In this document: positions 19,097 to 63,400 of the stretch, in pieces
How positions within the stretch are numbered: the first letter of the stretch is position 1
Layout of the letters: the number at the start of each line of letters is the position of its first letter
Source: Candidatus Saccharimonadota bacterium
GTDB taxonomy: Bacteria; Patescibacteriota; Saccharimonadia; CAILAD01; GCA-016700035
Assembly (NCBI GenBank): GCA_046350755.1
Contig: JAXLZV010000001.1
Coordinates: 480,823-544,822 of the forward strand
DNA length: 64,000 nt
Direction of reading: 5' to 3'
Notes under the pieces: generated by a model
Databases searched by the model: none
Told to the model about the DNA's origin: nothing
The model's input: the letters and a program-made list of their open reading frames with translations, nothing else
Position numbers and translations under genes: made by a program

Positions 19097-19256
19097 GTCC
19101 GAAACCAAGGCTTGCACCCGGGGCCAAGCCTATGCTATTGCCGGCACGCTCATAGCGCTAGCAGCAGTCATTGGCGCTGGTCTCTATATCATCGGTCGAT
19201 CAACACCAGAACCAACAGCTAAGCCAAAGGCAACCTCAAAAAGGTCAGCTAAGTAG
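19089..19256 (+). CDS. unannotated small single-TM peptide (55 aa)
   Basis: ATG at 19089 overlaps the TAA of the upstream gene (ATGGCTAA). Encodes MAKSETKACTRGQAYAIAGTLIALAAVIGAGLYIIGRSTPEPTAKPKATSKRSAK and stops at 19254-19256. A GAAGG motif lies 9 nt upstream. Confidence 0.3.
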   Translation: MAKSETKACTRGQAYAIAGTLIALAAVIGAGLYIIGRSTPEPTAKPKATSKRSAK

Positions 19257-45496: not shown

Positions 45497-45503
45497 TATT
45501 TCT

Positions 45504-45533
45504 CCCCCGTCAGAAATGGCGGGGTATTTTATT
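45504..45533 (+). terminator. rho-independent terminator
   Basis: CCCCCGTCAGAAATGGCGGGG followed by TATTTTATT. Confidence 0.6.
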
Positions 45534-45599
45534 GCCTGTAGTTTCGCTGCCGAACAAAAACCGGGTATACTAGAGACGAAAAGCATTCCTTTCATATAT

Positions 45600-47366
45600 A
45601 TGCAGTCTGATAAATTTACCATCCCTAATCCAAAGCATCTCGAACTTTGGCAGAAGCTTCTGCTAGGTTTCTTGATCGTTGGCTTATCGATATTAGCTGT
45701 CCTAGCAGCAATGCGCATCGCCTACAATGGGCGTCTTTTGCCAGGAACAAAAGCCTACGGCATATATGTCGGCGGCATGACAAAAGCCGATGCAATAAGT
45801 CTTTTGCAACGCGAGACCGATCAATATGTGAGCTCGTCGACCATTATCGTAAACGCCCCGGGAGTAAACCCACTATCCATTCCCGCAAGTGAGGTTGAGG
45901 TTCAATACAATCCCGAAGCTATCGTCGACGAGCTTTATAAGCTCGGACGTGATGGTCAGCTCATGAATCAGCTGAGTGAGCAAGCTCTACTCCTCGTTGG
46001 CGCCCAGCAGCTGCCGACCGGGCAAGTGAGCTATAACCCGTCTAAACTATACGCCACTATTCAGCCCGCTTATGCCGCCCTCAATAAGCCAGCACAAAAT
46101 GCCAATTACGCAATTTCAAAAACCGGCGCACTCATCATTAACCCCGAAAAGTCCGGCCAACGACTCAACCTAGTGGCTTTTATCGGGAATTATGAAGCAC
46201 TCATCACCAACCTCGAACGAGGCGCCACCACCATACAGGCTAAATCACAGGCCGCTGCCATACCAAGTAGTGCTTTAGAATCCAAGCGCAATGCGCTTAC
46301 TCCCTTCATCTCATCACCACTCACACTCACTTATAGCTCAAAGACTTGGAAAATCCCGACCGCCGAGGTGCTGGGCTGGTTGAGTTACTCAGCTCAACAA
46401 GGTCCGGAGAAAAGCGATCTCTTGAATAATTATTACGCAAGCACACGGGTATCGCGAGCCGACGTCGACTTTGATACTGCCCGCATCAGCAGCTACCTTG
46501 GCGTCATTGCTAAAGACGTCAATCAGCCAGCCGTTGATGCCAAGCTTACTATTTCCGGTGACCGAGCCAGCATCTTCCAACAGAGTCAGGATGGTAGGGC
46601 TTTGGATACTGCTACCACATCAAAGACTATTATTGAGAATTTTCGAGCCAGCCAGCCGGCCTCCACTCTACCAGCTACCGTCGTCGTCACGAAGGCTGAT
46701 GTAAATGACAGTAATATCGATCGACTCGGCATTAAAGAATTGCTGTCTGAGGGGGTTACCTATTTCCCAGGCTCGAGCGCAAATCGCATTGTCAACGTCC
46801 GCGTTGGGTCGAGTAAATTCAATGGAGTCCTCCTCAAGCCTGGCCAAGTATTTAGCTTTGGACAACTCTTAGGTGACGTCGGCCCCGAGCAGGGCTATAG
46901 AGAGGGTCGGGTCATCCTGGAGGGCCGTCAGGAGAGTCAGTATGGTGGTGGCTTATGCCAAGTGAGCTCAACGGCGTTTCGAGCGGCCCTACTCGCCGGT
47001 TTACCAATACTTGAGCGCTACAACCACTCATTTGCTGTCAGCTACTACACTGCCCCATATGGCGTTCCCGGAATTGATGCCACTATCTACTATCCCCAAG
47101 TTGATTTTAAATTCCGCAATGACACCGATGCGTATATTCTCATTCAAACCGAGATGGTTGGCACCACTCTAAAATTCCGCTTCTTTGGCACTAAGAAAAA
47201 AGAGGGAGTTATTCGCGGACCAAACTTCATCTATGGATCAAACGACCCTAACCAACCTTCAAAGACCGTGTTCTATCGAGATATTAAGGTCGGAAATACC
47301 GTCGTCAAAACTGATACTTTTTACACGACCTATAAGTCTGCCGCTGATTTTCCAGCAGTCAATTAG
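45600..47366 (+). CDS. VanW family protein
   Basis: Start refined to MQSDKF at about 45600. The track TTG start at 45378 overlaps the upstream gene and its terminator. N-terminal TM. GGGLCQVSSTAFRAALLAGL and the C-terminal YYPQVDFKFRNDTD... are typical of VanW. Confidence 0.65.
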   Translation: MQSDKFTIPNPKHLELWQKLLLGFLIVGLSILAVLAAMRIAYNGRLLPGTKAYGIYVGGMTKADAISLLQRETDQYVSSSTIIVNAPGVNPLSIPASEVEVQYNPEAIVDELYKLGRDGQLMNQLSEQALLLVGAQQLPTGQVSYNPSKLYATIQPAYAALNKPAQNANYAISKTGALIINPEKSGQRLNLVAFIGNYEALITNLERGATTIQAKSQAAAIPSSALESKRNALTPFISSPLTLTYSSKTWKIPTAEVLGWLSYSAQQGPEKSDLLNNYYASTRVSRADVDFDTARISSYLGVIAKDVNQPAVDAKLTISGDRASIFQQSQDGRALDTATTSKTIIENFRASQPASTLPATVVVTKADVNDSNIDRLGIKELLSEGVTYFPGSSANRIVNVRVGSSKFNGVLLKPGQVFSFGQLLGDVGPEQGYREGRVILEGRQESQYGGGLCQVSSTAFRAALLAGLPILERYNHSFAVSYYTAPYGVPGIDATIYYPQVDFKFRNDTDAYILIQTEMVGTTLKFRFFGTKKKEGVIRGPNFIYGSNDPNQPSKTVFYRDIKVGNTVVKTDTFYTTYKSAADFPAVN

Positions 47367-53498: not shown

Positions 53499-53767
53499 GT
53501 TTTGAAAGGCTTGGCGACGCCCTGAATCGTAAGGATATTGATCAGCATGAGGATCTGCTGGCTTTCTTTGATCTGGCGAAATCAGTGATTGCTCGTCGCA
53601 GTGGCGTGAAAGTCGATGCGGTGAGTTTTAAAAATGATATTTTGCGTATCGCGGTATCGCACCCGGTTGAAGCTAGCGAGATTCGCTTACGTCACATACA
53701 GATAGAGCGTGAAATTTCCAAAAAATCCGGACGTAAGCTCGAGCGGTTACAGGTCCGCGTTTTATAA
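53495..53767 (+). CDS. DUF721 (DciA-like) protein
   Basis: 90 aa reading MSFERLGDALNRKD... ATGA overlap with the recF stop, in the usual post-recF position. Confidence 0.65.
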   Translation: MSFERLGDALNRKDIDQHEDLLAFFDLAKSVIARRSGVKVDAVSFKNDILRIAVSHPVEASEIRLRHIQIEREISKKSGRKLERLQVRVL

Positions 53768-55090
53768 CTTAAGCTGATATATTTTACCAACCAAACCTTC
53801 TCCGAGCGTATAGGTACTGACAGTTAATGAGTTATTAATCTTGTCGAAGTACGCATCATATACGCCAACGTTACTGTAGTTAAAAGTGGCTTGCTTGATG
53901 GCTATCTGAGTCTGAGAGTCGTAAATCCAGATCGCACCTTTTTCGACGTAGCTCAGCTTGGTATTGCTGACCCAGCGGATAGAGTTATTCTCAGCTCCGG
54001 TTTGGGCGAGCACGGTAGTAATGTTGCCAGTATTGATATCGAGGATATGTACGGTTTGGTCGGTAATAAAGGCGAGCTTATTGCCGTCGAGAGACCAGCT
54101 AGAGCCCTCCTCTGTCGTCGCGTCTTTATCGGTGATTTGCTGGACGGTTTTTCGGTTTTTCACATCGTAGATACTCATCTTCAGTGGCTCGCGTGGAGTT
54201 TCCTTTTGGTTAGGTTGATTATCGACAACCCCTTCTTCGCCGATAGTTATTTCCGGCTGTGAAAAGAGTACGATCAGGCCGTTTTTAGACAGAGTAAAAC
54301 TCGAGTTAATGCTTTGGCCGTCAATCTGGATTTCTTCTGCATATTCGTCTGTCGAGCCCTGATAGTAGAGCTTATCGAGGTGACGCATGACTCGATCGCC
54401 ATTTTCATTGACGGCAATGTCATCGATCGAGAGCGTATCCGCTTCACCGCCGGGACCTTCTTCTGCAGCTTCTTTCGGATCGTTGGCGGGGGCCTCTTTT
54501 AGGCGGATTCCAAAGCTTGTGACGACTCCCCCGGGACTGAGCTTGTAGCTATTGTTAGTAGTGTCGCGGAAATAACCGAGGCCGTACTGCACCCAGTCAA
54601 GCTGAGTAATCGTATAGTCTTCGATGTAGGGTGCCCCCTCAGTTTGCGCATCGGGAATCGTGTAGATCGATTGGAAAGGAATATTGAGAAACTCTACCTT
54701 TGCGCCCTCGGTGACGATATCTTTCGCCTGGTAGTTGGCATACTCGCTGAGGTTCTGCGGATTAGTGAGATCAAGGGTGGTTTTTTGGGTTTGTCGAGCT
54801 TCAAGCTTTGTTGTGTAGCAGCTTTCTGCAGAGTCTGCCGAAGCAGTAATGGTATAGTCTCCAGGAGGCAGGCGCTTATCGACCTTCCCTTTGCCGATAA
54901 CTTCAGCCGATTGATTTTTTCGATTGACGATTGTCAGCTTAGCATTTGGTTGGTTAGTCTGAATGATGACGCGGCCAGTCGTGAAGTATTCGTAGATGAA
55001 TTGCGCGAGCAGGATGAGTAGGATTACCCCAGCTAGTCCAAGGATGATTCGGATGATGAGTGTGCGGTTGAGGGTTATAGTGGGCTGCAT
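53762..55090 (-). CDS. membrane-anchored secreted protein with a PEGA-like Ig domain and a PD40/TolB-like beta-propeller
   Basis: N-terminal TM, then LPPGDYTITAS (PEGA-like), then a beta-propeller-like C-terminus (SWSLDGNKLAF...). It is the last gene of the T4SS-like operon, 3 nt from the upstream gene. Confidence 0.45.
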   Translation of the reverse strand: MQPTITLNRTLIIRIILGLAGVILLILLAQFIYEYFTTGRVIIQTNQPNAKLTIVNRKNQSAEVIGKGKVDKRLPPGDYTITASADSAESCYTTKLEARQTQKTTLDLTNPQNLSEYANYQAKDIVTEGAKVEFLNIPFQSIYTIPDAQTEGAPYIEDYTITQLDWVQYGLGYFRDTTNNSYKLSPGGVVTSFGIRLKEAPANDPKEAAEEGPGGEADTLSIDDIAVNENGDRVMRHLDKLYYQGSTDEYAEEIQIDGQSINSSFTLSKNGLIVLFSQPEITIGEEGVVDNQPNQKETPREPLKMSIYDVKNRKTVQQITDKDATTEEGSSWSLDGNKLAFITDQTVHILDINTGNITTVLAQTGAENNSIRWVSNTKLSYVEKGAIWIYDSQTQIAIKQATFNYSNVGVYDAYFDKINNSLTVSTYTLGEGLVGKIYQLKL

Positions 55091-55093
55091 AGT

Positions 55094-56986
55094 TTACTCC
55101 GGTAATTTCGCAAATGCTTGAATGAGTATCGGCTGTGGATTTATGAGGGTGGCGCATTGCGCAGCACAGTTATCGCGCCCTCGACTAAAGCCATTTGGTA
55201 CCGGGCTAATATCGAAGTGTAAGTGTGGGCCGGTATTTTGTGCATCGGCGGCGGTGCCAACTACTCCAATAGCTTGCCCGGCCTGAACGACATTCCCTTT
55301 GTTCGCCTTATTCGAACCCTGTGGCATATGGGTGTAGAAGTACCATTTACCATCATTGCCGCGAATTCTCATATTTTGCCCATTTTTACTTGAGTAATTA
55401 CTCCCTTCGACGACTCCTCCGACCGCTGCCACGACCTCAGTACCAGTTGGAGCACCGATGTCGGCGGCATTATAGTCGTGGTGACAATTCGCCTGACTGG
55501 TATAACACCACTTAACTGGTGAGGCGTTCTTGATAGCTGTTTTAGTTGTTTTAAGCGGGAAGATAAAACCATCAGCGCTCACGCCGAGCCCACCAGCTTG
55601 GCCAGTTGTGGTCGCGATGGTTCCAGCTGCTATACAGTCTTGTCCGACTGCTGTAGCAGGTGCGGCAGCACCAATTCCACCCTGCAAGCTCAGATAAAAC
55701 GGTATCGCGCGGGTGATATAATTTTGCGTTTCTTTAGGAAGATTGGCGAGAGTATTCGCACCGGCAATCCGTCCGCCACCAGCATTGTAGGCTATGAGTA
55801 CGGTTACGACTGATGGATTAATGCTGTTTGGTCGTTCAATACTACCGACGGGAATACCGGCCTTACCACCACTATTGGCGATGTAGTTGGCAGCCCCGAA
55901 GGCGGCATCGGTAAGGTCTTGGATATCTTTTACTCCATCGCCATTGCCGTCTTGACCACTCGAGGCCCAAGTGGAGTTGAGGAATTGAAATGGCCCATTT
56001 GCCCCTTTATTCGAGCTGGCCCAGGCCTTGCCAGTGCCATATGGTGGTGGAGGATTTGGAAAGCCGCCCCCGTGCTCGATCCAGAAAATGGCTGTCAGGA
56101 TGCCAACATCGGTGCCAAATTTCGCCGCCGCTTTAGGGAAAATTGAGCGATACGGCTCGGGAATACTGGCGGGTAAGCTGGTGAGTGTACCGGTTGCCGC
56201 TGGGTCGGCCGGTTGAGCGGCGACATCGGTATTCGGTGGGGTCGAGCCACTGAATGTACTGTAGAGTACGACGCTATTAACGACCAGCTCAGCGAGGGCT
56301 TTATAGCCTGCAGCATCTGTGTGTACTCCATAGCTCGTTATCGGAAAAGCTGTCGTGGTCGGTGTCAGATTCTGTGGATCGGCCGTTGGGGCAATGAGTT
56401 TTGACCAGCTAATGACTTTATAGCCGAGGGATTGATTACTATAGATAGTCTTATTGACTTGTGAGTAAGCAGCTTGGTTATCTGAAGAGTAAACATCGAC
56501 CCAGAGCAGCTGGGCATCGGGGTTGATGCCACGGATTTTCTGAATCAATTGCGATTGTAGGGATGAAAAATTATTCTCGAGATTAGTGCCTAACTCGATC
56601 ACGATATACTTTGCTGATTTTACAAACTCCGTATCAGCGGTCACAGCATCAAGTCCACTCGGGGCGGCACTCTGCCCTCCCCTTTGAATACCTCGTGACG
56701 TAGCGACATTTAGTCGTGGAGTAAAGCCTTTCGAGCTGAACATACTTTCTATCCCGGCCGACTGCATACCAACGCCAATTGAATCACCCAGCAGGTATAC
56801 CGGCCCAGGGCCACCGGCTCCACGTCCTACCTGTTCATCGACGCCGCCAAAGCCACACAGCTCAGCATATTTATCGTAAAAAGGATAGCGTTCAATTCCC
56901 TGTCTTTGCTCGGAAGCCGCTAGGGCTGCAGTCGGTGAAAAGAATAGCGCCGCCAGAGTTATGAGCGTGAAGAGTTTTTTCATCAT
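55094..56986 (-). CDS. secreted triple-domain peptidoglycan hydrolase: SGNH/GDSL esterase, lytic transglycosylase (SLT) and M23 peptidase
   Basis: Signal peptide. VYLLGDSIGVG (GDSL) with a later DxxH-like motif. IEHGG...GANGPFQFLNSTW (SLT catalytic Glu plus the GxxQ motif). HHDYNAADIG...GPHLHFDIS (M23 HxxxD and HxH). Confidence 0.65.
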   Translation of the reverse strand: MMKKLFTLITLAALFFSPTAALAASEQRQGIERYPFYDKYAELCGFGGVDEQVGRGAGGPGPVYLLGDSIGVGMQSAGIESMFSSKGFTPRLNVATSRGIQRGGQSAAPSGLDAVTADTEFVKSAKYIVIELGTNLENNFSSLQSQLIQKIRGINPDAQLLWVDVYSSDNQAAYSQVNKTIYSNQSLGYKVISWSKLIAPTADPQNLTPTTTAFPITSYGVHTDAAGYKALAELVVNSVVLYSTFSGSTPPNTDVAAQPADPAATGTLTSLPASIPEPYRSIFPKAAAKFGTDVGILTAIFWIEHGGGFPNPPPPYGTGKAWASSNKGANGPFQFLNSTWASSGQDGNGDGVKDIQDLTDAAFGAANYIANSGGKAGIPVGSIERPNSINPSVVTVLIAYNAGGGRIAGANTLANLPKETQNYITRAIPFYLSLQGGIGAAAPATAVGQDCIAAGTIATTTGQAGGLGVSADGFIFPLKTTKTAIKNASPVKWCYTSQANCHHDYNAADIGAPTGTEVVAAVGGVVEGSNYSSKNGQNMRIRGNDGKWYFYTHMPQGSNKANKGNVVQAGQAIGVVGTAADAQNTGPHLHFDISPVPNGFSRGRDNCAAQCATLINPQPILIQAFAKLPE

Positions 56987-59900
56987 CTAGTCTCCATGCC
57001 CGATACTTGGACAATAGAGGAAGGTCGGTAGTCGATATTGATTCTCGATGCGCACGTGGAAGTGATTATCGTGATTGACGAGTGACTGCATTTTAAAGTT
57101 CACACCCTTCTGCTGCGCGTAGGTATTTGAGGCATTGATAACGTATGGATCATTAAAGAAGATATTGGTGACGATCCCGGTATCGACAAACATCTTGGCG
57201 AGTTCGAGGGTTTTTTCGCGCGAATAGCCCGGTCGCGGGATGTCAGCTACCCATTCATTGCCAACCCGTCCATCGAGGTCGACATCAACACCATTCTTAT
57301 GAGAAGCGTGCCCATCGGACGTAATTTCACCTATTTGTAAGTAGCCGTTAGGATATGTTTTTCTAAACTGCTGCGCTACTGTATAGATCATATCGATCAT
57401 CGCTTTATTGCCGCACATATCCCATTCTTGGCCAAAGCCAGTACCATTATCCCCGTCATAGATATATGAGCCGTCGACCGACCGAGGGAGCTTGTATGAG
57501 CCATTTGATTCGACCGGCCCGAGGTTGGGTGGTGAAATGAGGCCGGTGATAGTGGATCCTGTGCCCGTCCCTCCGGTCGCAGGAGCAGGACCTTCACCTG
57601 GTAGTGACGAATTGGCGTTCAGGCTGGTATCCTCTTTATCTGGATTTGATAGGTAGACCAGAGCATCGGCTTGCAGGTTGTAGAAGTGGTAGGCACCATA
57701 TCGAGTCTCGAGACTGTTGAGATTAGGGCTATTTGTGCTCTCAAACAGAGGCTTACAGTACTTGTCATACAGATCTTTTTTATCATCATCGGGGTATAGG
57801 AGATGGAAGCGACTCGGAATGAATTCCCGGTAGCAGAGCTCATAGTAGTAGAACTTCTGTAAGAGATCGGGGCGAGCCAGCTTTAAGCCTTCGATGAAGC
57901 GGGCATTTTGGACGGGGTCTATTTGACTGTAGATCTCCGGGATGCCGGCTGGATCAAGCTTGAGATTTTGGGAGTCGTATATCGAGGCGGCCATGGCGAC
58001 GCGTGATTTACCAGTCAGTAAAGCAGCAATGGTCCCCCGCTCGCCAGCTAGGTTGCGGATCGGACTAGCAACTGTTGCGATGACTGAGCCAACATTGCTG
58101 GCGACTTTTTGAGGCTTATCGGTGAAGGCAACGCGCAGACGACTCGTTAGTGAGCCGGGATTTTCTAGGTCAAACAGTCGGTAAGCCAGTCCCCGAGTTT
58201 GTTCGTCATAACTGCGAGCTAATTGAATAGATTCATCACGGGCGACAGCCTCGTTATTGGTGAGGAACTTACCACCCATGGCGAGTGATATGCCGTTCAT
58301 GTAGGCCTTCATACCGAAGTTCATGCGGTTGAAGTTTTGAGGACCATCTTCCGTGCCGGCAGTCGCAACGTTTGATTCGAGTCGGGTAGCTCGAAACAGA
58401 ATATCTTCATAGGTGAGATTATTATAGATCTGACTAATCGATTGAGATTTTTCTGGTCGAGAATAGTAATCGATGCTGGCCATCGCCTTTTTAAATATCG
58501 GATAGGCGTCATTCCAGAAGGCATTAGTGGCTTGAATCGAGGCCGGTGAGCTGTACTGACTCTTGTCTTGAGCAGCTTCACAGGGGCTCAGTCCATTTAC
58601 TGGTCGATTGACGTAGGCGAAGATTGCATCTAGCCCTTTTGTATATTGATCATCAATCTGTAATAGATTTTTGTCGCCAGTTGAATTATAGTAACCGACG
58701 ATTCTTGATACGGCATCAGGTTCGATAGCGATGCCGGTCGCTCGCCCGTCTAAGCTGTGATTGTATTCCTGCCCCGACTGCATGCCGGCAATCTTATAGA
58801 AGTCCTTATTTAGCTCATTAATATTGAGAAAACGCGCACGATTTGTATCGGCGTACGTCACTGCCTGCCAGCCAGCCACTGCTGCTGAGTTGATGCGATT
58901 CTTCACGCGAGCCCGATAGGTTTTTGTGGCTTCGGCTTCTGGCTTGAGGAGTCGATCGTAGAGATCGCAGACTGTATTGAGAGCTGCGCGCTTTGGTCGA
59001 ATCGCCAAGTCAGGATTTGGGTCATTAGCTGTCGATTCATCAGGGAGGGTTGTATAGAGTAAGAGATTTTTTGGTTCGATACCGCATTGGAGATCGTGAT
59101 TCATCTTATCGACGTCCTTATCCCAAAACTTGTCACCTTGTGGAACATAATTATTCGCGCAGTCGATAATGTCCTGACTATAGAGCCCTGCTGAGTATTT
59201 CTGCACACTTCTAGTACCGCCGAAAAATTCAAGCACTGCATCATCACTCGCTTTTACTTGTTCGGGTGTGGCTTGGCCGGCGACCTCATATTTACCACCA
59301 CGATTCCAGATGCGAGTCAGGGTTTTTTCACGCAGGGCTTTTTGAAGCTCAGAAGGTGGTTTATCGAGGTTGGCTGATTCTTCTGGCTCGGCATAGGCAT
59401 AGCGAACATTAAGATTCTTATTAACGCCATCGCGCACGAATTGGGAGCGCATCATCGCGTTGAAGATTGGGTATGAGTTGTTGATGCAGTTCGCGCGCGC
59501 CACCCCATCGAGCTCCTTACCGGGGTTAGTATTGAGTTGGATAGACTCGATGACGGAGCGTTTTTTGCCATCGACTGTTGAGACTACCTCTTTGGTCTTA
59601 ATTACACAGCGACTGTCATTTGGTAGGGTTTGGTATTTGGCCTTCTCCCAATCGATTTGCGAAAGCTTGTACTCATAAGTATCGATCGCCGGCTTCGCCG
59701 CAATGGCAGTTGCCGCAACGGCCGTCGGCGTGCCGGGCTTAACATCTACTTCGTAGGCAAGCTTACCAGCGCCACCATAGCTAATAACCGCCCCAACCAT
59801 ACCACCGATACCAGCTTTCATACCTGCCCAACCTAAGCTCAAGATGGCGCGCGGGTTATCCCAAGCGAAGAAGATAACCAGGAAGAAGATAATTATCGGC

Positions 59901-60457
59901 AGGAATGAGAGGAATATACCGAAAAAGATAATGTAGAGCCAGTAGCTTTGTTTGAATTTCTTGCCAGTTATCTTCTGAACGCCGGCCTCTACGGCATTTT
60001 TGGCCGCGACTACGGCGGTACCGATACCGGTTTTTGAAGCGGCGGCCTCGCCAACCTTGACCCCAGCTTCGAGCGCCGCTTCTCCCTTACCGTCTTCGCG
60101 AGCGGTGCGGCGGACATCATCTATCTCGCGTTTGGCGTTGAGGCCCTTTGTGGCGGATTTACCGATGGCACCACTGATCGATTTATTGGCTGCCTTAGTT
60201 GCTTCTCCACTGGTCTCATTAGCGATCTTAGTAGCTTCGCCACCTTTATTGGCAACCTTGGTAGCCTCCCCGCCTGTATTGGCGGTCTTAGTGGCTTCGC
60301 CGCCCTTACTGCTTCCGCCAGTATTGGTGGGGGTTGTACCGCCGCGGGCTTGGTCGGCGAATGATCCGCCGCTATTGGGTCCACCTGGCTTTGGCGCTTC
60401 GCGATAGTGTCGCCGTTGACCGTCCGAATGTATTGCTTCGTCCACCCTCCAGATCAT
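56987..60457 (-). CDS. VirB6-like polytopic protein (1,156 aa) with N-terminal GGEATKxAN repeats and a C-terminal LAS/M15-like zinc-peptidase domain
   Basis: Four tandem 11-aa KxGGEATKxAN repeats (DNA at about 60175-60320). TM helices YWLYIIFFGIFLSFLPIIIFFLVIFFAW and GWAGMKAGIGGMVGAVISYGG. A large extracytoplasmic region. C-terminal SDGHASHKNGVDVDLD ... NHDNHFHV (H-x6-D and H-x-H). Confidence 0.55.
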   Translation of the reverse strand: MIWRVDEAIHSDGQRRHYREAPKPGGPNSGGSFADQARGGTTPTNTGGSSKGGEATKTANTGGEATKVANKGGEATKIANETSGEATKAANKSISGAIGKSATKGLNAKREIDDVRRTAREDGKGEAALEAGVKVGEAAASKTGIGTAVVAAKNAVEAGVQKITGKKFKQSYWLYIIFFGIFLSFLPIIIFFLVIFFAWDNPRAILSLGWAGMKAGIGGMVGAVISYGGAGKLAYEVDVKPGTPTAVAATAIAAKPAIDTYEYKLSQIDWEKAKYQTLPNDSRCVIKTKEVVSTVDGKKRSVIESIQLNTNPGKELDGVARANCINNSYPIFNAMMRSQFVRDGVNKNLNVRYAYAEPEESANLDKPPSELQKALREKTLTRIWNRGGKYEVAGQATPEQVKASDDAVLEFFGGTRSVQKYSAGLYSQDIIDCANNYVPQGDKFWDKDVDKMNHDLQCGIEPKNLLLYTTLPDESTANDPNPDLAIRPKRAALNTVCDLYDRLLKPEAEATKTYRARVKNRINSAAVAGWQAVTYADTNRARFLNINELNKDFYKIAGMQSGQEYNHSLDGRATGIAIEPDAVSRIVGYYNSTGDKNLLQIDDQYTKGLDAIFAYVNRPVNGLSPCEAAQDKSQYSSPASIQATNAFWNDAYPIFKKAMASIDYYSRPEKSQSISQIYNNLTYEDILFRATRLESNVATAGTEDGPQNFNRMNFGMKAYMNGISLAMGGKFLTNNEAVARDESIQLARSYDEQTRGLAYRLFDLENPGSLTSRLRVAFTDKPQKVASNVGSVIATVASPIRNLAGERGTIAALLTGKSRVAMAASIYDSQNLKLDPAGIPEIYSQIDPVQNARFIEGLKLARPDLLQKFYYYELCYREFIPSRFHLLYPDDDKKDLYDKYCKPLFESTNSPNLNSLETRYGAYHFYNLQADALVYLSNPDKEDTSLNANSSLPGEGPAPATGGTGTGSTITGLISPPNLGPVESNGSYKLPRSVDGSYIYDGDNGTGFGQEWDMCGNKAMIDMIYTVAQQFRKTYPNGYLQIGEITSDGHASHKNGVDVDLDGRVGNEWVADIPRPGYSREKTLELAKMFVDTGIVTNIFFNDPYVINASNTYAQQKGVNFKMQSLVNHDNHFHVRIENQYRLPTFLYCPSIGHGD

Positions 60458-60460
60458 GTA

Positions 60461-62386
60461 CTAGACTCCCGGTGCCGTTCCGGACGCACCCGGTTCGTAC
60501 TGATTAGCTACCTGACTCGCATCGGCCACCCCAACAGTTCCCTGCTGGACTGCCTCCTCGGTGTTCTCAAGCCGTGATTGAGCATTTTGCATATCGCGTT
60601 CGAGTAATACCTGTGGGTTGGTGGTAATGAGCTGCTCTTCCATCGGGCTGGCAAGGATGCGGATAACAACGTGGTTTGAACCAGCAAAGAATAGCCCTTC
60701 ACCGACTGGGAACTGACTGAGGCGAGATTTTTCTTCGCTCGTTAGTTTGAAGGTTTCAGCGACGATATCGGCGGCTGATGGTGCTTGCTTGAGCAGTAGT
60801 TGCAGCGAGCTATTATTGACGACGGCTCGACCGAGTCGGTCTGACAGGAAGTCTTCTACGTCTTGTGAGATGGTGGTCAGTCCGAGGTAATACTTACGGG
60901 CACGCTTAGCAATCGAGAACATAAATGAAGCTGAGTCGGGGTGCTTCATGAGCTGCCAGGCCTCGTCGACGGCTAGGATTCGCCTGCGCTTATCAGTTTT
61001 TACGCGATTCCAGATGTAATTGAGGGTGATATACATACCGATCGGGCGTAGTTCATCCTCGAGGTCGCGGATATTAAAGACCACAAACTTATTATTTAGC
61101 TGAACATTTGACTGCTGAGAGAAGATACCTGAGAAGGTACCTTCGGTATAGCGGCGTAGCCGCGAGGCGATTTGTGGGCCGCTACCACCCATCGTGATGA
61201 GCGTGTTGTAAAGGTCACTCATAACTGGTGGCTGACTGCGGTGTGTGAGTGGGTCGTTCGTGATCCCCTTTTGGGCGTAGGTATTGATGAGGGCGAGGTC
61301 GAGATCTGATTCTTCGGCCGCCGAGAGCTCACCACACATTAGACGAATCAGGCCGTGTAGCATGATGATGTTGGCGCGCAGGGCATTATCAGCTTCTTCG
61401 GGGTCGATGACGATCGGGATGTCGAATGGATTGATGCGTGTATTGCTGGCTAGGGAGAGGTGTACGAAGCTCCCGCCGACAGCATCGCAGAGCGTGCGGT
61501 ATTCGTTTTCTGGGTCGATGATGATAACATCGGTGCCCATCATCAGCGATCGCAGGCATTCTAGTTTGACGGTAAAACTCTTACCGGCACCAGACTTAGC
61601 AAAGACCACCATATTAGCGTTTTCTAAGCTGAAACGGTCAAACAGGACGAGACCATTATTATGACGGTTGAGGCCGTAGAGGACTCCTTCATTGCGTGAT
61701 AGCTCAGCTGAGGTGAATGGGAAGCTGGTTGAGAGCGAGCCGGTATTCATATTCCGGTAGATGCCGAGCTGATCAGTACCGATCGGCAAGGTAGAGTTGA
61801 AGCCTTGCTCCATCTGAACGGTGGCAGGCTTGGTGTATACCAGGCTTGTGCCTAGAATGGACTCAATCTTCCGCTGGATAAGGTCGAGCTCCTCAACATC
61901 CTTACCATAGACTGTTAGGTAGAGGCCAAAGCGGAAGAAGCGCTCTTCACCAACTTGGAGTTTGTCGCGTAATTCTTCAGCATCGCCGATGGCTGCTTCA
62001 AGACCCGGATCACGAATCTTACCCTTTTCGGCATTGATCTGCACTGAGGCCTCGAGCTGACCAACTTTTTTCTTGAGGTTCTCGAGAACAACCCGACTTT
62101 CGACCGGCATAATATTGAGCGAGATATCGATGATCTCATCGAGATTGATAATTGGTGACAGCCAACCAGTGAAGAGAGTCCGTGGGTAGCCGTAGACGAA
62201 GAGAGTGCGGACGTAGCGCGTACCGACGATAAGATAATTATTCTCGATGGTGAATGAGCTCGGAGCAATAATGTCGCGCAGAGTTAAGATGCCTTCGCGG
62301 TAGGCCCGTTCGGCTTCCTGTTGCTGAGCCGCTGCCATATCAACAGCTGCTTGCTGAGCTGGATCGACTTTTGGTTTGCGGGCCAT
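60461..62386 (-). CDS. type IV secretion ATPase, VirB4/TraE/PrgJ-like (Gram-positive type)
   Basis: Walker A VFAKSGAGKSF (DNA at about 61567-61611) and Walker B ILAVDEAW. N-terminal pattern Y.R.LFVYGYPRTL..GWL typical of TraE/TcpF-type VirB4. 641 aa. Confidence 0.85.
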   Translation of the reverse strand: MARKPKVDPAQQAAVDMAAAQQQEAERAYREGILTLRDIIAPSSFTIENNYLIVGTRYVRTLFVYGYPRTLFTGWLSPIINLDEIIDISLNIMPVESRVVLENLKKKVGQLEASVQINAEKGKIRDPGLEAAIGDAEELRDKLQVGEERFFRFGLYLTVYGKDVEELDLIQRKIESILGTSLVYTKPATVQMEQGFNSTLPIGTDQLGIYRNMNTGSLSTSFPFTSAELSRNEGVLYGLNRHNNGLVLFDRFSLENANMVVFAKSGAGKSFTVKLECLRSLMMGTDVIIIDPENEYRTLCDAVGGSFVHLSLASNTRINPFDIPIVIDPEEADNALRANIIMLHGLIRLMCGELSAAEESDLDLALINTYAQKGITNDPLTHRSQPPVMSDLYNTLITMGGSGPQIASRLRRYTEGTFSGIFSQQSNVQLNNKFVVFNIRDLEDELRPIGMYITLNYIWNRVKTDKRRRILAVDEAWQLMKHPDSASFMFSIAKRARKYYLGLTTISQDVEDFLSDRLGRAVVNNSSLQLLLKQAPSAADIVAETFKLTSEEKSRLSQFPVGEGLFFAGSNHVVIRILASPMEEQLITTNPQVLLERDMQNAQSRLENTEEAVQQGTVGVADASQVANQYEPGASGTAPGV

Positions 62387-63351
62387 TAGACTCCCCCTCC
62401 AACTAATGGATTCTGTGGTGGGGCCGGCGGCGTTGGTGGGATTTGCTGAGGTGGTACGACTGGTGCTGGCTGGGCGGCCGTCGGTGGTGCCGACACCGGA
62501 CTCGACGCCTGGCTCCCAACGCCGTTACGCATGCCGCTGGTGTACATATCGTCTGGCTCAGGCTCAGGAGTTGCGTTATAGCTTCCATCTGGTATTGGCG
62601 GGTCATCCCCGCGCATAACAACCGGCGTAGTCATCTGATCGATGTCGACGAGATTTTGATTGACTGCTTCGTCTTGATTGTAAGCGGTGTAGAAGAGTTC
62701 GGTGATTTCCTGAGTGCTTAAGACGGCAGCTCGGATACCCATCTGAGCAAGCCCTTGCGCCACGAGGTTGGTGCGTTGAATCAGATCGCGTTTGCGCTGC
62801 TCAAACATCTCGGTTGTCTGTGTCTCATCAGAATTACTCTTAAATAAATCAGCCAGCTTAACGCCAGCGTTGTCGCGCTTCTTGCCTTTGAGCTCGAGAT
62901 AATACGGAACGACAATGTAGAACTCCTTGTTCATAATGTTGACCTGCTCGAGGAGACCGCGAATATTGTAGATGTAGTCTTCCATTAGCCCGGCAATCAA
63001 CGGATTTTCCTGGTTGGCTTGGAGGACCTCTAGGTTGTCGAGATAGTTGTCGAGCTCGAGCTTACGACTCCGGACGATGATTTGGATCGGAAAGTGGAGG
63101 CCGTTGAGAAAGCCCTGATAGGCATACTCGATAGCATCTTGCTCTTGGGGCGACTTGAGGTCGAAATTCAAGGCGCTACCGAGAATGATCATACGCAAAG
63201 AACCATCACGCATCACCACGATCCCGTCTTTAATCTCGGTAAACATCAGGTGGTTTTGCGTACTGGCACGCTGATCCTTCACGTCCTTAGGCGGCGTGAT
63301 GGATTTCGTAAATTCAGCTTGTTCGGGCGTCTGGGCAGCTTGATCTGCCAT
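62386..63351 (-). CDS. T4SS-associated protein of unknown function with a Pro-rich C-terminus, translationally coupled to virB4
   Basis: Start refined to the ATG (MADQAAQ) at 63351, which has a GGTAGGTG RBS. The track GTG at 63363 directly follows an in-frame TAG. Its stop and the virB4 start overlap as TAATG at 62384-62388. The N-terminal segment IKDGIVVMRDGSL...IVRSR is reminiscent of VirB4/TrbE N-terminal domains, but this is unverified. Confidence 0.45.
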   Translation of the reverse strand: MADQAAQTPEQAEFTKSITPPKDVKDQRASTQNHLMFTEIKDGIVVMRDGSLRMIILGSALNFDLKSPQEQDAIEYAYQGFLNGLHFPIQIIVRSRKLELDNYLDNLEVLQANQENPLIAGLMEDYIYNIRGLLEQVNIMNKEFYIVVPYYLELKGKKRDNAGVKLADLFKSNSDETQTTEMFEQRKRDLIQRTNLVAQGLAQMGIRAAVLSTQEITELFYTAYNQDEAVNQNLVDIDQMTTPVVMRGDDPPIPDGSYNATPEPEPDDMYTSGMRNGVGSQASSPVSAPPTAAQPAPVVPPQQIPPTPPAPPQNPLVGGGV

Positions 63352-63400
63352 AGGAGATAACACCTACCTTGTAATTAGTCTGTTTTAGAGACATCCATCC

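What the first reader, a model, noticed from the sequence alone, without database searches (positions are those of the whole stretch)
55094..56986. Three different cell-wall-cleaving activities on one secreted protein: SGNH esterase, lytic transglycosylase and M23 endopeptidase
Signature motifs for all three catalytic domains are present in order (GDSIG; E...GxxQ...W; HxxxD...HxH). T4SS-associated hydrolases usually carry one or two lytic domains. A triple enzyme could locally de-O-acetylate, cut glycan strands and cut cross-links in the organism's own wall, or possibly in a partner cell's wall, during apparatus assembly.
Basis: partly seen in the sequence, partly recalled or inferred. Interest (0 to 1): 0.55.

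Follow-up and report, generated by a model that had tools for sequence, protein, structure and literature searches.

The report
Three-module wall-cutting enzyme of Saccharibacteria T4SS
This gene encodes a secreted enzyme with three different cell-wall-cutting modules, sitting in the secretion-machine locus that tiny parasitic Saccharibacteria need to live on their host bacteria; it is a new module combination of a known kind of enzyme, not a new kind.

Summary
The 630-aa ORF at 55094-56986 (-) is real. It has a cleavable signal peptide and three well-folded domains joined by disordered linkers: an OatA-C/PatB-like SGNH domain (61-245), a GH23/SLT lytic-transglycosylase-fold domain (268-436) and an M23 metallopeptidase domain (465-630). 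It lies in one operon with a VirB4 ATPase, beside recF-dnaN-dnaA. That arrangement recurs in 28 fetched Saccharibacteria/Patescibacteria loci and matches the T4SS cluster reported essential in Southlakia epibionticum. Pfam does not call the SGNH domain on this protein (15.9 bits against a 32.9 cut-off); family profile and fold do. The canonical M23 HxxxD reads YNAAD, with His502/503 just upstream. The SGNH triad Asp is Tyr219. Neither accessory domain is degenerate as in PrgK, but activity is unproven. Three modules is not exceptional: the gene at this position carries 2-4 interchangeable lytic modules around a constant SLT core, and SEML1_0006 and PrgK also have three. The new elements are the SGNH-SLT fusion and the module shuffling. 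Most likely mechanism: de-O-acetylate MurNAc, cut glycan, cut cross-links. Whether the target is the cell's own wall or the host's is open.

The parts
55094..56986 (-). Whole gene: 630-aa secreted three-module peptidoglycan hydrolase (stop codon included)
   Evidence: ORF list. Pfam M23 and SLT_2 above gathering. Full-length AF2 model with three folded domains.
56992..56995 (-). GGAG Shine-Dalgarno, 5 nt before the ATG; the upstream gene's TAG stop (56987-56989) abuts the ATG
   Evidence: Sequence read: ggcatGGAGacTAGATGATG. Indicates translational coupling within the operon.
56918..56986 (-). Signal peptide, res 1-23 (MMKKLFTLITLAALFFSPTAALA|AS): KK n-region, hydrophobic core, A-L-A at -3..-1; no lipobox Cys
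   Evidence: It is the only hydrophobic 19-mer in the protein (res 5-23) and is modelled as helix 2-15. The cleavage site is inferred from the -3/-1 rule; no predictor was run.
56807..56917 (-). Post-signal peptide segment, res 24-60: loosely conserved peptide EQRxGIERYPFYD...C44, then a Gly-rich linker; low pLDDT
   Evidence: Alignments. pLDDT below 50 for 17-57. Function unknown.
56252..56806 (-). SGNH/GDSL domain, res 61-245, OatA-C/PatB-like. Ser69 (GDS), Ser97-Arg98 (block II), Asn135 (GTN), His222; triad Asp position is Tyr219
   Evidence: Sub-threshold Pfam hit spanning the full profile. 19/22 homologous segments hit PF13472. Profile vs PDB gives 6WN9/6VJP at 2.4e-17 and PatB at 4e-7. 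Foldseek TM 0.76-0.78 to OatA-C. Residue conservation.
56186..56251 (-). Linker 1, res 246-267, Pro/Thr/Ala-rich, disordered
   Evidence: pLDDT below 50 for 246-266.
55679..56185 (-). GH23/SLT-fold glycan-strand-cleaving domain, res 268-436. Glu304 (catalytic, invariant), G331-P-F-Q334-F, D346-G-N-G-D-G-x-x-D354 loop resembling the MltB Ca loop, A399-Y-N-A-G; PNPPPPYGTG insert between Glu and GPFQF
   Evidence: Pfam SLT_2 38.7 bits and SLT. Profile vs PDB gives SltB3/MltB/Slt35 at about 1e-6. Domain-only AF2 model has pLDDT 95 and pTM 0.91. Nearest structures are MltF, SltB2/3, Slt70, MltC, MltE and LtgA. E39 (=E304) is invariant in 20 sequences.
55595..55678 (-). Linker 2, res 437-464, disordered; contains Cys451, invariant in all 30 aligned relatives
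   Evidence: pLDDT below 50 for 437-463. C451 invariant.
55097..55594 (-). M23 (LytM-type) metallopeptidase domain, res 465-630. C501-H502-H503-D504-Y505-N-A-A-D509; H553 (YTHM); H588-L-H590. Canonical first His replaced by Tyr505, with His502/503 displaced upstream
   Evidence: Pfam 60 bits. PDB sequence hits 9GY1, 3SLU, 6MUK and zoocin A. Foldseek hits ShyA, LytM, lysostaphin and EnpA. Motif statistics.
56987..60457 (-). Upstream neighbour, 1156 aa, probable membrane protein with a C-terminal LAS/DD-peptidase-like domain (HASHKNGVDVD...HDNHFHV); positional equivalent of SEML1_0007
   Evidence: Weak Peptidase_M74/MepA hits at res 1016-1061. Homologous segments lie in the same position in L001, L010, L012, L019-21. 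SEML1_0007 is annotated Hedgehog/DD-peptidase at 951-1105.
60461..62386 (-). VirB4-like T4SS ATPase (CD1110 family, monoderm MPF-FATA type)
   Evidence: NF045971 at 376.8 bits vs a 325 cut-off. Pfam P-loop_TraG and AAA_10. 52-80% identical to the VirB4 of 28 related loci.
62386..63363 (-). 325-aa T4SS-locus protein (weak TrsD/TraD-like), conserved upstream of VirB4
   Evidence: NF041427 at E=5.8e-4, sub-threshold. Syntenic in most related loci.
53762..55090 (-). Downstream 442-aa exported protein (CarboxypepD_reg/PEGA-like N-terminus plus beta-propeller-like region); last gene of the operon before the convergent recF
   Evidence: Weak Pfam hits. Weakly conserved in L001, L002, L004, L010 and L049. 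SEML1_0005 at the same position is an exported PEGA-domain protein.

Best explanation
The gene encodes the dedicated cell-wall-opening enzyme (functional VirB1/PrgK analogue) of the chromosomal, origin-proximal, monoderm-type T4SS of a Saccharimonadia (Patescibacteria) bacterium.

Shown: it is exported by a cleavable Sec signal peptide with no membrane anchor, and it consists of three independently folded modules on flexible linkers.

Inferred mechanism: (1) the OatA-C-like SGNH module has no acetyl-donor partner domain, so it acts as an esterase and strips 6-O-acetyl groups from MurNAc; (2) this licenses the GH23/SLT module (Glu304) to cleave the MurNAc-GlcNAc bond, which O-acetylation otherwise blocks; (3) the M23 module (Asp509, His553, His588, His590, with His502/503 or Tyr505 completing the metal site) cuts peptide cross-links. 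Together they make a local hole large enough for the T4SS channel or pilus. The SLT module is the constant core of this gene family; SGNH and M23 are two of many interchangeable accessory lytic modules.
For: Gene and domains.

SGNH identity: 19/22 homologous segments hit PF13472. Profile to OatA-C at E=2.4e-17 and to PatB. Fold TM 0.76-0.78. Ser, Asn and His are invariant or nearly so at 25-38% identity.

SLT identity. The nearest folds are mostly genuine LTs.

M23 identity. Four of five active-site residues are canonical, and 19 of 20 Tyr-variant members have a His within 4 residues upstream.

T4SS membership: VirB4 equivalog. Operon packing with a stop-start junction. The order p325, VirB4, giant protein, hydrolase, then recF/dnaN/dnaA on the opposite strand is conserved across the fetched loci (28 carry both VirB4 and the hydrolase).

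Literature: the corresponding S. epibionticum cluster SEML1_0006-0019 is essential for epibiotic growth, and SEML1_0006 is itself a three-domain hydrolase scored ES (PMC10633639). Patescibacterial T4SS is MPF-FATA-like, lies near dnaA, and has VirB1 homologues with extra M23/LysM domains (PMC12102498). O-acetylation blocks LTs and lysozymes (PMC6174289). LtgA and Ape1 form a synergistic complex (PMC7083599). No AT3/MBOAT partner was found in the protein or among the 29 window ORFs scanned.
Against: No activity was measured. The SGNH triad Asp is missing (Tyr219), whereas about 35 of 42 family modules keep an acid 3-5 residues before the His. The query itself fails the Pfam GDSL_2 threshold. 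Its closest solved relatives are O-acetyltransferases, not esterases. The canonical first zinc-ligand His of M23 is Tyr505, and metal binding could not be assessed because no model coordinates are exposed. In PrgK, the best-studied three-domain T4SS hydrolase, only the middle domain is active, it is a muramidase rather than an LT, and the flanking domains are regulatory (PMC11323569). Whether the organism's own or its host's peptidoglycan is O-acetylated is unknown.
Confidence: 0.6

Rival explanations
1. PrgK-like scenario: only the SLT-fold module is catalytic. The SGNH and M23 modules are substrate-binding or autoregulatory domains that restrain or target the glycosidase.
For: PrgK has predicted LytM, SLT and CHAP domains, but only the middle one is active and the others down-regulate it (PMC11323569). 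In the query both accessory domains carry one non-canonical catalytic position: Tyr219 and Tyr505. The query's SGNH scores below the Pfam threshold.
Against: PrgK's LytM lacks both HXXXD and HXH completely. The query keeps Asp509, His553, His588 and His590, and a conserved upstream His. The SGNH nucleophile Ser, oxyanion Asn and base His are invariant or near-invariant across 22 relatives at 25-38% identity, which argues for selection on catalysis. Ser-His dyad SGNH esterases with an aromatic block-V residue are known to be active (CE2 family, PMC9487903).
Confidence: 0.25
2. Same biochemistry, but the target is the host bacterium's wall, not the producer's. The soluble enzyme is released at the epibiont-host interface and opens the host's (possibly O-acetylated, lysozyme-resistant) peptidoglycan so that the T4SS or pilus can reach the host membrane. 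The module set is matched to host wall chemistry.
For: There is a cleavable signal peptide and no membrane anchor or wall-binding domain, unlike the TM-anchored PrgK and the TM-anchored versions in Paceibacteria-type loci. Genomes whose VirB4 is 71-80% identical carry different module sets at this position: SGNH-SLT-M23, SLT-Amidase_2, SLT-SGNH-Glucosaminidase-VanY, SLT-M23. That is the pattern expected for adaptation to varied targets. The best whole-protein structural analogues are phage virion or ejection proteins that breach a target cell's wall from outside (cyanophage A4 pre-ejectosome, phi29 gp13-like). The T4SS is essential for epibiotic growth yet lacks relaxase and coupling protein (PMC10633639).
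Against: There is no direct evidence of secretion beyond the producer's wall. The canonical role of VirB1-like enzymes is in cis. Module shuffling could equally reflect relaxed constraint or variation in the producers' own walls. Sequence divergence of the hydrolase (44% to L001) matches housekeeping neighbours (recF 42%, dnaN 44%), so there is no sign of accelerated evolution.
Confidence: 0.35
3. The SGNH module is an O-acetyltransferase like its closest solved relatives (OatA-C, PatB). It acetylates MurNAc to limit or terminate cleavage by the adjacent glycosidase, or to protect the producer's wall.
For: Best sequence-profile and fold matches are OatA-C and PatB. Block II Ser-Arg resembles OatA-C, where Ser often replaces Gly (PMC6174289).
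Against: OatA-C and PatB need a membrane AT3 or MBOAT partner to supply the acetyl group. None is fused here, and none was found among 29 scanned ORFs of the window. Outside the membrane no activated acetyl donor is known. These transferases act as esterases when water is the acceptor. The recurrent fusion to glycan-cleaving modules, which O-acetyl groups block, fits removal rather than addition.
Confidence: 0.07
4. A general autolysin for growth or division that merely happens to lie next to T4SS genes.
For: SLT, M23 and SGNH domains are common in housekeeping wall enzymes.
Against: The stop-start junction with the upstream T4SS gene and the 3-nt gaps point to one operon. An SLT-containing hydrolase occupies the same position relative to VirB4 in 28 fetched loci spanning several Patescibacteria classes. 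The same M23 subtype is also found fused to the C-terminus of the giant T4SS-locus protein in other genomes.
Confidence: 0.05

Closest known systems
SEML1_0006 of Ca. Southlakia epibionticum ML1 (Wang et al. 2023, Cell; PMC10633639)
   Same: Same genomic position (recF, small exported protein, hydrolase, giant protein with C-terminal DD-peptidase, VirB4). Similar size (643 vs 630 aa). Three catalytic-type domains on one exported protein. Scored essential in Tn-seq as part of the T4SS cluster.
   Different: The module set is entirely different: glucosaminidase-like (PF01832), phage-tail-lysozyme-like (PF18013) and cysteine peptidase, versus SGNH, SLT_2-type GH23 and M23. No SGNH module is reported there.
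PrgK of Enterococcus faecalis pCF10 (DELTA-class VirB1-like hydrolase; PMC11323569)
   Same: T4SS-encoded, monoderm MPF-FATA-type system, with three predicted extracellular hydrolase domains including an M23/LytM and an SLT-fold domain.
   Different: PrgK has an N-terminal cytoplasmic domain and a TM anchor, and the order LytM-MUR-CHAP. Its LytM lacks HXXXD and HXH entirely and binds no metal. Only the middle domain is active, and as a muramidase. The query has a cleavable signal peptide, the order SGNH-SLT-M23, a largely intact M23 site, and an SLT domain whose nearest folds are mostly genuine LTs.
TraG (pIP501) and canonical VirB1 of Gram-negative T4SS
   Same: An SLT-fold glycan-cleaving module dedicated to T4SS assembly. 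TraG adds a second (CHAP) module.
   Different: One or two modules and no esterase module. VirB1 is periplasmic in diderms.
Ape1-LtgA complex of Neisseria meningitidis (PMC7083599)
   Same: An SGNH de-O-acetylase and a GH23 lytic transglycosylase working together. De-O-acetylation permits LT action, and each stimulates the other.
   Different: They are separate proteins forming a non-covalent complex in housekeeping wall turnover. Ape1 is a CE3-type SGNH with a CBM and a full Ser-His-Asp triad. Here the two are one polypeptide in a T4SS operon, and the SGNH is OatA-C-like with a Ser-His pair.
OatA C-terminal domain (6WN9/6VJP, 5UFY) and PatB (7TLV, 8TLB) peptidoglycan O-acetyltransferases
   Same: Closest sequence-profile and structural relatives of the N-terminal domain. 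Compact SGNH fold, GDS / [SG]-R / GTN / H blocks, and Ser in block II as in streptococcal OatA.
   Different: Those enzymes receive acetyl from a fused AT3 or partner MBOAT protein and transfer it onto MurNAc. The query has no such partner domain and lacks the triad Asp.
Phage virion-associated wall hydrolases (cyanophage A4 pre-ejectosome protein 9K2V, phi29 gp13, tape-measure or internal proteins with lysozyme/LT + M23)
   Same: A glycan-cleaving module plus an M23 module on one polypeptide that opens a wall for a trans-envelope conduit. These are the top whole-protein structural hits.
   Different: They are parts of virions acting from outside on a target cell. No SGNH module appeared in the matched hits, and there is no common ancestry beyond the individual domains.

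Membership tests
SGNH/GDSL hydrolase superfamily (Pfam PF13472 Lipase_GDSL_2) | Score at or above the Pfam gathering threshold on the protein itself | tested here: not met
   15.9 bits, E=0.019, against a 32.9 cut-off, though aligned across profile positions 2-178 of 178. No hit in the whole-protein scan. 19 of 22 homologous segments do hit PF13472 at E<=0.001.
SGNH/GDSL hydrolase superfamily | Block I GDS with nucleophile Ser; Block III GxN oxyanion Asn; Block V catalytic His | tested here: met
   Ser69 (GDSIG), Asn135 (LGTN), His222. G43/D44/S45, G109 and N111 are invariant and H198 is at least 90% conserved in alignment A1 numbering.
SGNH/GDSL hydrolase superfamily | Block V Asp of the Ser-His-Asp triad (DxxH) | tested here: not met
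   The query reads S-Y219-G-V-H222. About 35 of 42 family modules have D/E at -3 to -5; the query and its 98% twin do not. Ser-His dyad SGNH esterases exist (CE2; PMC9487903).
SGNH/GDSL hydrolase superfamily | Block II Gly (oxyanion-hole backbone NH) | tested here: inconclusive
   The query has Ser97-Arg98. The family column is S in 12 and G in 3 sequences. Ser replaces Gly in many OatA-C homologues (PMC6174289).
SGNH/GDSL hydrolase superfamily | Three-layer alpha/beta/alpha SGNH fold | tested here: met
   AF2 pLDDT is mostly 85-95 over 61-245. Foldseek gives OatA-C 6WN9/6VJP at TMt 0.76-0.78 and PatB 7TLV at 0.60.
Peptidoglycan O-acetyltransferase (OatA-C / PatB type) | Fused AT3 domain or partner MBOAT protein supplying the acetyl group | tested here: not met
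   There is no such domain in the protein and none among 29 ORFs of the 64-kb window scanned with Pfam. The rest of the genome is not available.
O-acetylpeptidoglycan esterase activity (works like Ape) | Release of acetate from 6-O-acetyl-MurNAc in peptidoglycan | not testable with these tools
   Needs an enzyme assay. Inferred from OatA-C/PatB-like specificity determinants, the absence of a donor partner, and the fusion to a glycosidase blocked by O-acetylation.
GH23 / SLT lytic transglycosylase (Pfam PF13406 SLT_2, PF01464 SLT) | Pfam gathering threshold | tested here: met
   SLT_2 at 38.7 bits vs 24.3 on the whole protein. On the isolated region, 43.0 bits, and SLT at 24.3 vs 21.3.
GH23 / SLT lytic transglycosylase | Single catalytic Glu at the end of a helix, followed by the G-x-x-Q-F and A-Y-N-x-G motifs | tested here: met
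   E304 ends helix 294-304 and is invariant in 20 sequences. GPFQF is at 331-335 with Q334 invariant in 30 sequences. AYNAG is at 399-403.
GH23 / SLT lytic transglycosylase | Goose-lysozyme-like fold | tested here: met
   The domain model has pLDDT 95.1 and pTM 0.91. Foldseek gives MltF, SltB2/B3, Slt70, MltC, MltE and LtgA at TMq about 0.55-0.62.
GH23 / SLT lytic transglycosylase | Product is 1,6-anhydroMurNAc (transglycosylase) rather than reducing MurNAc (muramidase) | not testable with these tools
   PrgK's 'SLT' proved to be a muramidase (PMC11323569). Here the nearest folds are mostly true LTs, but only muropeptide mass spectrometry can decide.
Peptidase M23 (LytM-type zinc endopeptidase) | Pfam gathering threshold and fold | tested here: met
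   60 bits vs 28.7. Foldseek hits ShyA, LytM, lysostaphin, EnpA and zoocin A.
Peptidase M23 | HxxxD motif: first zinc-ligand His and the Asp | tested here: not met
   Asp509 is present, but the His position is Tyr505 in three PDB alignments. No literal HxxxD occurs outside the HxH region. His502/His503 lie 2-3 residues upstream and are conserved (invariant or near-invariant in A3; 19/20 Tyr-variants have an upstream His).
Peptidase M23 | HxH motif and the additional catalytic His | tested here: met
   H588-L-H590 and H553 (YTHM). These are H in 24-27 of 30 aligned sequences, i.e. in nearly all M23-bearing ones.
Peptidase M23 | Bound zinc and endopeptidase activity | not testable with these tools
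   Model coordinates are not exposed, and no assay is possible.
T4SS-dedicated peptidoglycan hydrolase (VirB1-like, functional class) | Encoded in the T4SS gene cluster next to VirB4, with conserved synteny | tested here: met
   VirB4 equivalog. Operon packing. Synteny in 28 loci.
T4SS-dedicated peptidoglycan hydrolase (VirB1-like, functional class) | Required for T4SS function or assembly; docks to a VirB8-like component | not testable with these tools
   The positional equivalent SEML1_0006 is essential by Tn-seq. PrgK binds PrgL. Nothing was tested for this protein.
PrgK-type DELTA class | N-terminal cytoplasmic region plus TM anchor, with LytM-MUR-CHAP order | tested here: not met
   There is only a 23-residue signal peptide and no other hydrophobic segment. 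The order is SGNH-SLT-M23.

The most novel reading that the evidence does not exclude
The enzyme is a host-wall 'can-opener'. It is released at the epibiont-host contact, its SGNH module strips the O-acetyl lysozyme-resistance marks from the host's peptidoglycan, and the glycosidase and M23 modules then cut a port for the essential T4SS or pilus. The rapidly shuffled set of lytic modules at this one locus (and on the neighbouring giant protein) is matched to host wall chemotype, and so is a genetic determinant of Saccharibacterial host range.
Probability: 0.3. Interest if true: 0.7.

Novelty: new variant of a known kind. Interest (0 to 1): 0.4.

Why it matters
The origin-proximal T4SS is one of the few machines shown to be essential for the epibiotic life of Saccharibacteria, and what it does is unknown. 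The wall-cutting enzyme in that locus is its most experimentally approachable part, because it is soluble, modular and can be expressed. If the SGNH-SLT fusion is a de-O-acetylase coupled to a glycan cutter, it would be a covalent version of the Ape1-LT partnership. It would also be the first esterase module assigned to a T4SS hydrolase. If module composition tracks host wall chemistry, this locus would make host range in uncultured Patescibacteria testable, because it could be read from genomes. If instead it acts only on the producer's wall, it is simply one more multi-domain VirB1 analogue.

Tried and rejected
1. Whole-protein Pfam and NCBIfam scans found no SGNH domain. The isolated N-terminus gave only a sub-threshold hit, so the assignment had to be made through relatives, profile and fold.

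2. The search for related loci with the 30-sequence alignment A2 failed because no conserved stretch was available. It was repeated with the 12-sequence A3.

4. Model coordinates are not exposed. I could not measure whether His502/503 or Tyr505 reach the M23 metal site, or whether any acid contacts His222.

5. The PrgK 2014 paper (PMC3911162) is not held. I used the 2024 mBio paper instead.

6. phmmer of the neighbour's C-terminal LAS-like domain against PDB found nothing meaningful. That domain stays 'probable', resting on weak MepA/M74 hits and the S. epibionticum annotation.

7. A strict regular expression for the conserved post-signal peptide matched only 11 of 87 homologues. The motif is soft, and I report it only as an observation.

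8. I considered the Val/Ile-before-Asn rule as an esterase/transferase discriminator (PMC6174289) and rejected it. The query has Thr134 (GTN), as does S. aureus OatA in the alignment, so the position does not discriminate here.

9. I considered and rejected a mobile-element origin. There is no relaxase or integrase nearby, and the locus lies in a fixed position beside dnaA across the class.


Full report
**1. What is there.**
The window holds an ATG-initiated ORF of 630 codons at 55094..56986 on the minus strand, exactly as reported. Its ATG directly follows the TAG stop of the upstream 1156-codon gene and has a GGAG 5 nt upstream. The downstream 442-codon gene starts 3 nt after its stop, and the VirB4-like gene ends 3 nt before the 1156-codon gene. 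The five genes from 63363 down to 53762 are therefore packed as one minus-strand operon.

The protein begins with a typical Sec signal peptide (MMKKLFTLITLAALFFSPTAALA|AS). This is the only hydrophobic segment in the protein, and there is no lipobox. An AlphaFold2 model built on 30 relatives gives three confidently folded domains at about 61-245, 268-436 and 465-630. Low-confidence linkers lie at 17-57, 246-266 and 437-463. The pTM of 0.42 reflects undefined inter-domain geometry, not poor domains.

**2. The three domains.**

*C-terminal domain.* Pfam Peptidase_M23 scores 60 bits against a 28.7 cut-off. There are sequence hits to solved M23 enzymes and fold hits to ShyA, LytM, lysostaphin, EnpA and zoocin A.

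*Middle domain.* Pfam SLT_2 scores 38.7 bits against 24.3, with SLT also detected. A 20-sequence family profile hits SltB3, SltB2, MltB and Slt35 at about 1e-6 over the GxxQF motif and the following D-G-x-G-D-G loop. The domain modelled alone has pLDDT 95 and pTM 0.91. Its nearest solved folds are all GH23, mostly true lytic transglycosylases: MltF, SltB2/B3, Slt70, MltC, MltE, LtgA and the T7 core protein. Glu304 ends a helix and is invariant in the family. Q334 is invariant in all 30 aligned relatives, and AYNAG is present.

Pfam and NCBIfam see nothing in the whole protein. The isolated N-terminus gives Lipase_GDSL_2 at E=0.019, 15.9 bits against a 32.9 cut-off, although the alignment spans the whole profile. 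The assignment is nevertheless secure through relatives:
- The region aligns at 1e-10 to 4e-35 with segments of 22 homologues other than the near-identical P0001.
- 19 of 22 such segments hit PF13472.
- The family profile hits the S. aureus OatA C-terminal catalytic domain (6WN9, 6VJP) at 2.4e-17 and PatB at about 4e-7.
- The model superposes on OatA-C at TM 0.76-0.78 and on PatB at 0.60.

It is therefore a compact SGNH domain whose closest characterised relatives act on the C6 hydroxyl of MurNAc.

**3. Are the catalytic residues intact?**

*SLT:* yes.

*SGNH:* Ser69 (GDS), Asn135 (GTN) and His222 are present, and they are invariant or nearly so in relatives only 25-38% identical. Block II is Ser97-Arg98 rather than Gly. 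Ser is the majority state in this family and is common in OatA-C (PMC6174289). The triad Asp is missing: the query reads S-Y219-G-V-H, whereas about 35 of 42 family modules keep Asp or Glu 3-5 residues before the His. Many CE2-family SGNH carbohydrate esterases work as Ser-His dyads with an aromatic block-V residue (PMC9487903). The loss therefore does not by itself imply inactivity, but it is a real departure.

*M23:* Asp509, His553, His588 and His590 are canonical. The first zinc-ligand His of HxxxD aligns with Tyr505 in three independent PDB alignments. The only literal HxxxD in the protein overlaps the HxH motif. The local sequence C-H-H-D-Y-N-A-A-D-I is almost fixed in the family. 19 of 20 Tyr-variant members have a His within four residues upstream, and the few members with a canonical His lack the CHHD prefix. 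These sequences are related, so this is not independent evidence. It is, however, the pattern expected for a displaced ligand rather than decay.

By contrast, PrgK's LytM has lost both motifs outright and binds no metal (PMC11323569).

**4. Context.**
The gene two upstream is a VirB4-like ATPase that passes the NCBIfam equivalog cut-off for the CD1110 (monoderm) family. The gene between them encodes an 1156-aa protein with a probable C-terminal LAS/DD-peptidase domain. Convergent with the operon are recF, dnaN and dnaA.

A scan of one genome per GTDB species returned 80 loci, overwhelmingly Candidatus Saccharibacteria or Saccharimonadales MAGs. In 28 of them an SLT-containing ORF lies on the same strand as, and downstream of, a VirB4 gene (52-80% identical). 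In most, the full order recurs: p325, VirB4, giant protein, hydrolase, sometimes a p442-like gene, then recF-dnaN-dnaA on the opposite strand. In several non-Saccharimonadia loci (L016, L022-24, L032, L035) the hydrolase directly follows VirB4 and has an N-terminal TM anchor instead of a signal peptide.

This is the locus described in two papers. [quoted passage not shown] Tn-seq in S. epibionticum scored the cluster SEML1_0006-0019 as essential for epibiotic growth (PMC10633639).

That paper's supplementary tables show the positional equivalent of the present gene. SEML1_0006 is 643 aa and has three domains annotated lysozyme-like (PF01832), lysozyme-like (PF18013) and cysteine proteinase. 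It is scored GD/ES/ES. SEML1_0007 next to it carries a C-terminal Hedgehog/DD-peptidase domain.

**5. How unusual is the architecture?**
Pfam scans of the ORF at this position in 20 genomes show a constant SLT core with changing partners:

| Locus | Architecture |
|---|---|
| L004 | GDSL_2, insert, SLT_2, M23 |
| L001 | [SGNH], [SLT], M23 |
| L003 | [SGNH], SLT_2, canonical M23 |
| L006, L009 | GDSL_2, SLT_2, LAS-like tail |
| L019 | SLT, GDSL_2, Glucosaminidase, VanY (four modules) |
| L008 | Phage_lysozyme2, LAS-like, SLT_2, Cys-peptidase-like |
| L010 | SLT_2, M23 |
| L012 | SLT_2, Amidase_2 |
| L016 | SLT, CHAP |
| L023 | SLT_2, NlpC/P60 |
| L029 | SLT_2, Peptidase_C39_2 |

Genomes whose VirB4 is 71-80% identical to the window's carry at least four different architectures.

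An exhaustive HMMER search of 1.84 billion representative proteins found 151 relatives at E<=1e-30. About 11 of the best 150 align collinearly across all three domains, and most of those keep the SGNH acid. The same CHHDY-type M23 module also forms the C-terminus of 1000-1225-aa proteins resembling the giant neighbour. Lytic modules therefore move between the two adjacent genes.

The exact SGNH-SLT-M23 combination is thus a small family of roughly a dozen 50%-identity clusters, but multi-module hydrolases are the rule at this locus. I found no paper in the searchable library describing an SGNH module in a T4SS hydrolase. The Patescibacteria survey lists M23 and LysM as examples of the extra domains.

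**6. Mechanism.**
*Shown:* a secreted protein with three wall-enzyme folds, in a T4SS operon, at a conserved position.

*Established elsewhere:* C6 O-acetylation of MurNAc blocks both lytic transglycosylases and lysozymes (PMC6174289). Ape1 de-O-acetylation permits LT action. LtgA and Ape1 form a complex in which each stimulates the other (PMC7083599). SGNH O-acetyltransferases behave as esterases when water is the acceptor.

*Inferred:* the SGNH module lacks any AT3 or MBOAT donor partner in the protein or in 29 scanned window ORFs, so it removes O-acetyl groups. The SLT module then cuts the glycan strand and the M23 module cuts cross-links, opening a port for the T4SS. The fusion is then the covalent counterpart of the Ape1-LT partnership.

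I put 0.6 on this overall. I am about 0.85 confident that it is the T4SS wall enzyme with an active glycan-cleaving core, and about 0.45 confident that all three modules are catalytically active.

**7. Rivals.**
(a) The PrgK precedent: only the middle domain is active and the flanks are regulatory (0.25).
(b) The same chemistry is aimed at the host wall rather than the producer's (0.35; not exclusive of the main explanation). In its favour are the lack of an anchor, the module shuffling at constant VirB4, and the resemblance to phage virion wall-breaching proteins. No direct evidence supports it, and the hydrolase's sequence divergence matches that of housekeeping neighbours.
(c) The SGNH module acts as an O-acetyltransferase (0.07).
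(d) It is an unrelated autolysin (0.05).

**8. Verdict.**
Two motif-level claims are wrong or need qualification (Pfam GDSL_2 on the query; HxxxD). The claim of exceptionality does not hold in this lineage.

The protein is best filed as a new module combination of a known kind: a multi-domain T4SS-associated peptidoglycan hydrolase. It has two points of real interest, namely an OatA-C-like SGNH module fused to the glycan cutter, and a locus where lytic modules are swapped around a fixed SLT core. Interest 0.4.

Noticed in passing
window 56987-60457 (-): The 1156-aa protein immediately upstream ends in a probable LAS/DD-peptidase domain (SDGHASHKNGVDVD ... HDNHFHV; weak MepA/Peptidase_M74 hits at res 1016-1061). 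The operon would then encode a fourth wall-cleaving module. It is the positional equivalent of SEML1_0007 (Hedgehog/DD-peptidase, 951-1105).
   Followed up: partly
P0126, P0130, P0133, P0145, P0184: In other metagenomic proteins the same CHHDYNAADI-type M23 module (about 50% identical to res 450-630) forms the C-terminus of 1000-1225-aa proteins that resemble the giant T4SS-locus neighbour. Lytic modules appear to be exchanged between the two adjacent genes.
   Followed up: partly
L019:9824-12265 and L020:9824-12286: A four-module version of the same gene, in a different order: SLT, GDSL_2, Glucosaminidase, VanY (813-820 aa). The VirB4 of these loci is 74-80% identical to the window's.
   Followed up: partly
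window 56807-56917 (-), res 24-60; same region in relatives: Directly after the signal peptide, most Saccharimonadia versions of the hydrolase share a soft motif ([ST]x[ED][QD][KR]xx[IF][ED]xxxx[YF][YF][DN] ... C) whatever domains follow. It is modelled with low confidence. It might be a docking peptide for a T4SS partner (PrgK binds PrgL), but a strict pattern matched only 11 of 87 homologues.
   Followed up: partly
window res C44, C451, C494, C501, C607, C611 of the hydrolase: There are six Cys in a secreted protein. Cys451 in linker 2 is invariant in all 30 aligned relatives, including those without M23. Many relatives have CC or CxC in the linker after the SGNH domain, where the query has none. 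Possible disulfide staples; unexplained.
   Followed up: no
window 56030-56059 (-), res 310-319: A proline-rich insert (PNPPPPYGTG) sits between the catalytic Glu and the GPFQF motif of the SLT domain. It is conserved in most relatives but replaced by a short 'PNGP' in some (e.g. P0009, P0010, P0011).
   Followed up: no
L016, L022, L023, L024, L029, L032, L035: In these loci, mostly non-Saccharimonadia Patescibacteria (L035 is titled Saccharibacteria), the SLT-containing hydrolase has an N-terminal transmembrane anchor rather than a cleavable signal peptide. Except in L029 (5.6 kb gap) it follows VirB4 directly (16-370 nt gap), with no giant gene in between.
   Followed up: partly
window 29125-38412 (+): A 3095-aa ORF combines an NHL beta-propeller (about res 170-390), at least four fibronectin type III domains (about 1011-1270) and a C-terminal HATPase_c histidine-kinase ATPase domain (2983-3091). 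It is an unusually large, surface-exposed sensor-kinase-like protein for a reduced genome.
   Followed up: no
P0031: One relative fuses a Beta-lactamase2 (PF13354) domain to the SLT_2 core. This is another unexpected accessory module in the family.
   Followed up: no
L026, L034, L042, L072: SLT-domain relatives (32-42% identity over about 90-165 residues) lie on contigs binned as Candidatus Aenigmatarchaeota (DPANN archaea). This is either mis-binning of Patescibacteria contigs or cross-domain transfer of the module.
   Followed up: no
window 19249-20463 (-) and 38432-39691 (-): A trehalose synthase (TreT_GT1) and a trehalase are both encoded in the window. A VanW/PG_binding_4 protein (45378-47366), an LGFP-repeat protein (44297-45496) and an LRAT/NlpC-P60-like protein with DUF308 repeats (8770-9921) add further envelope-related genes.
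   Followed up: no
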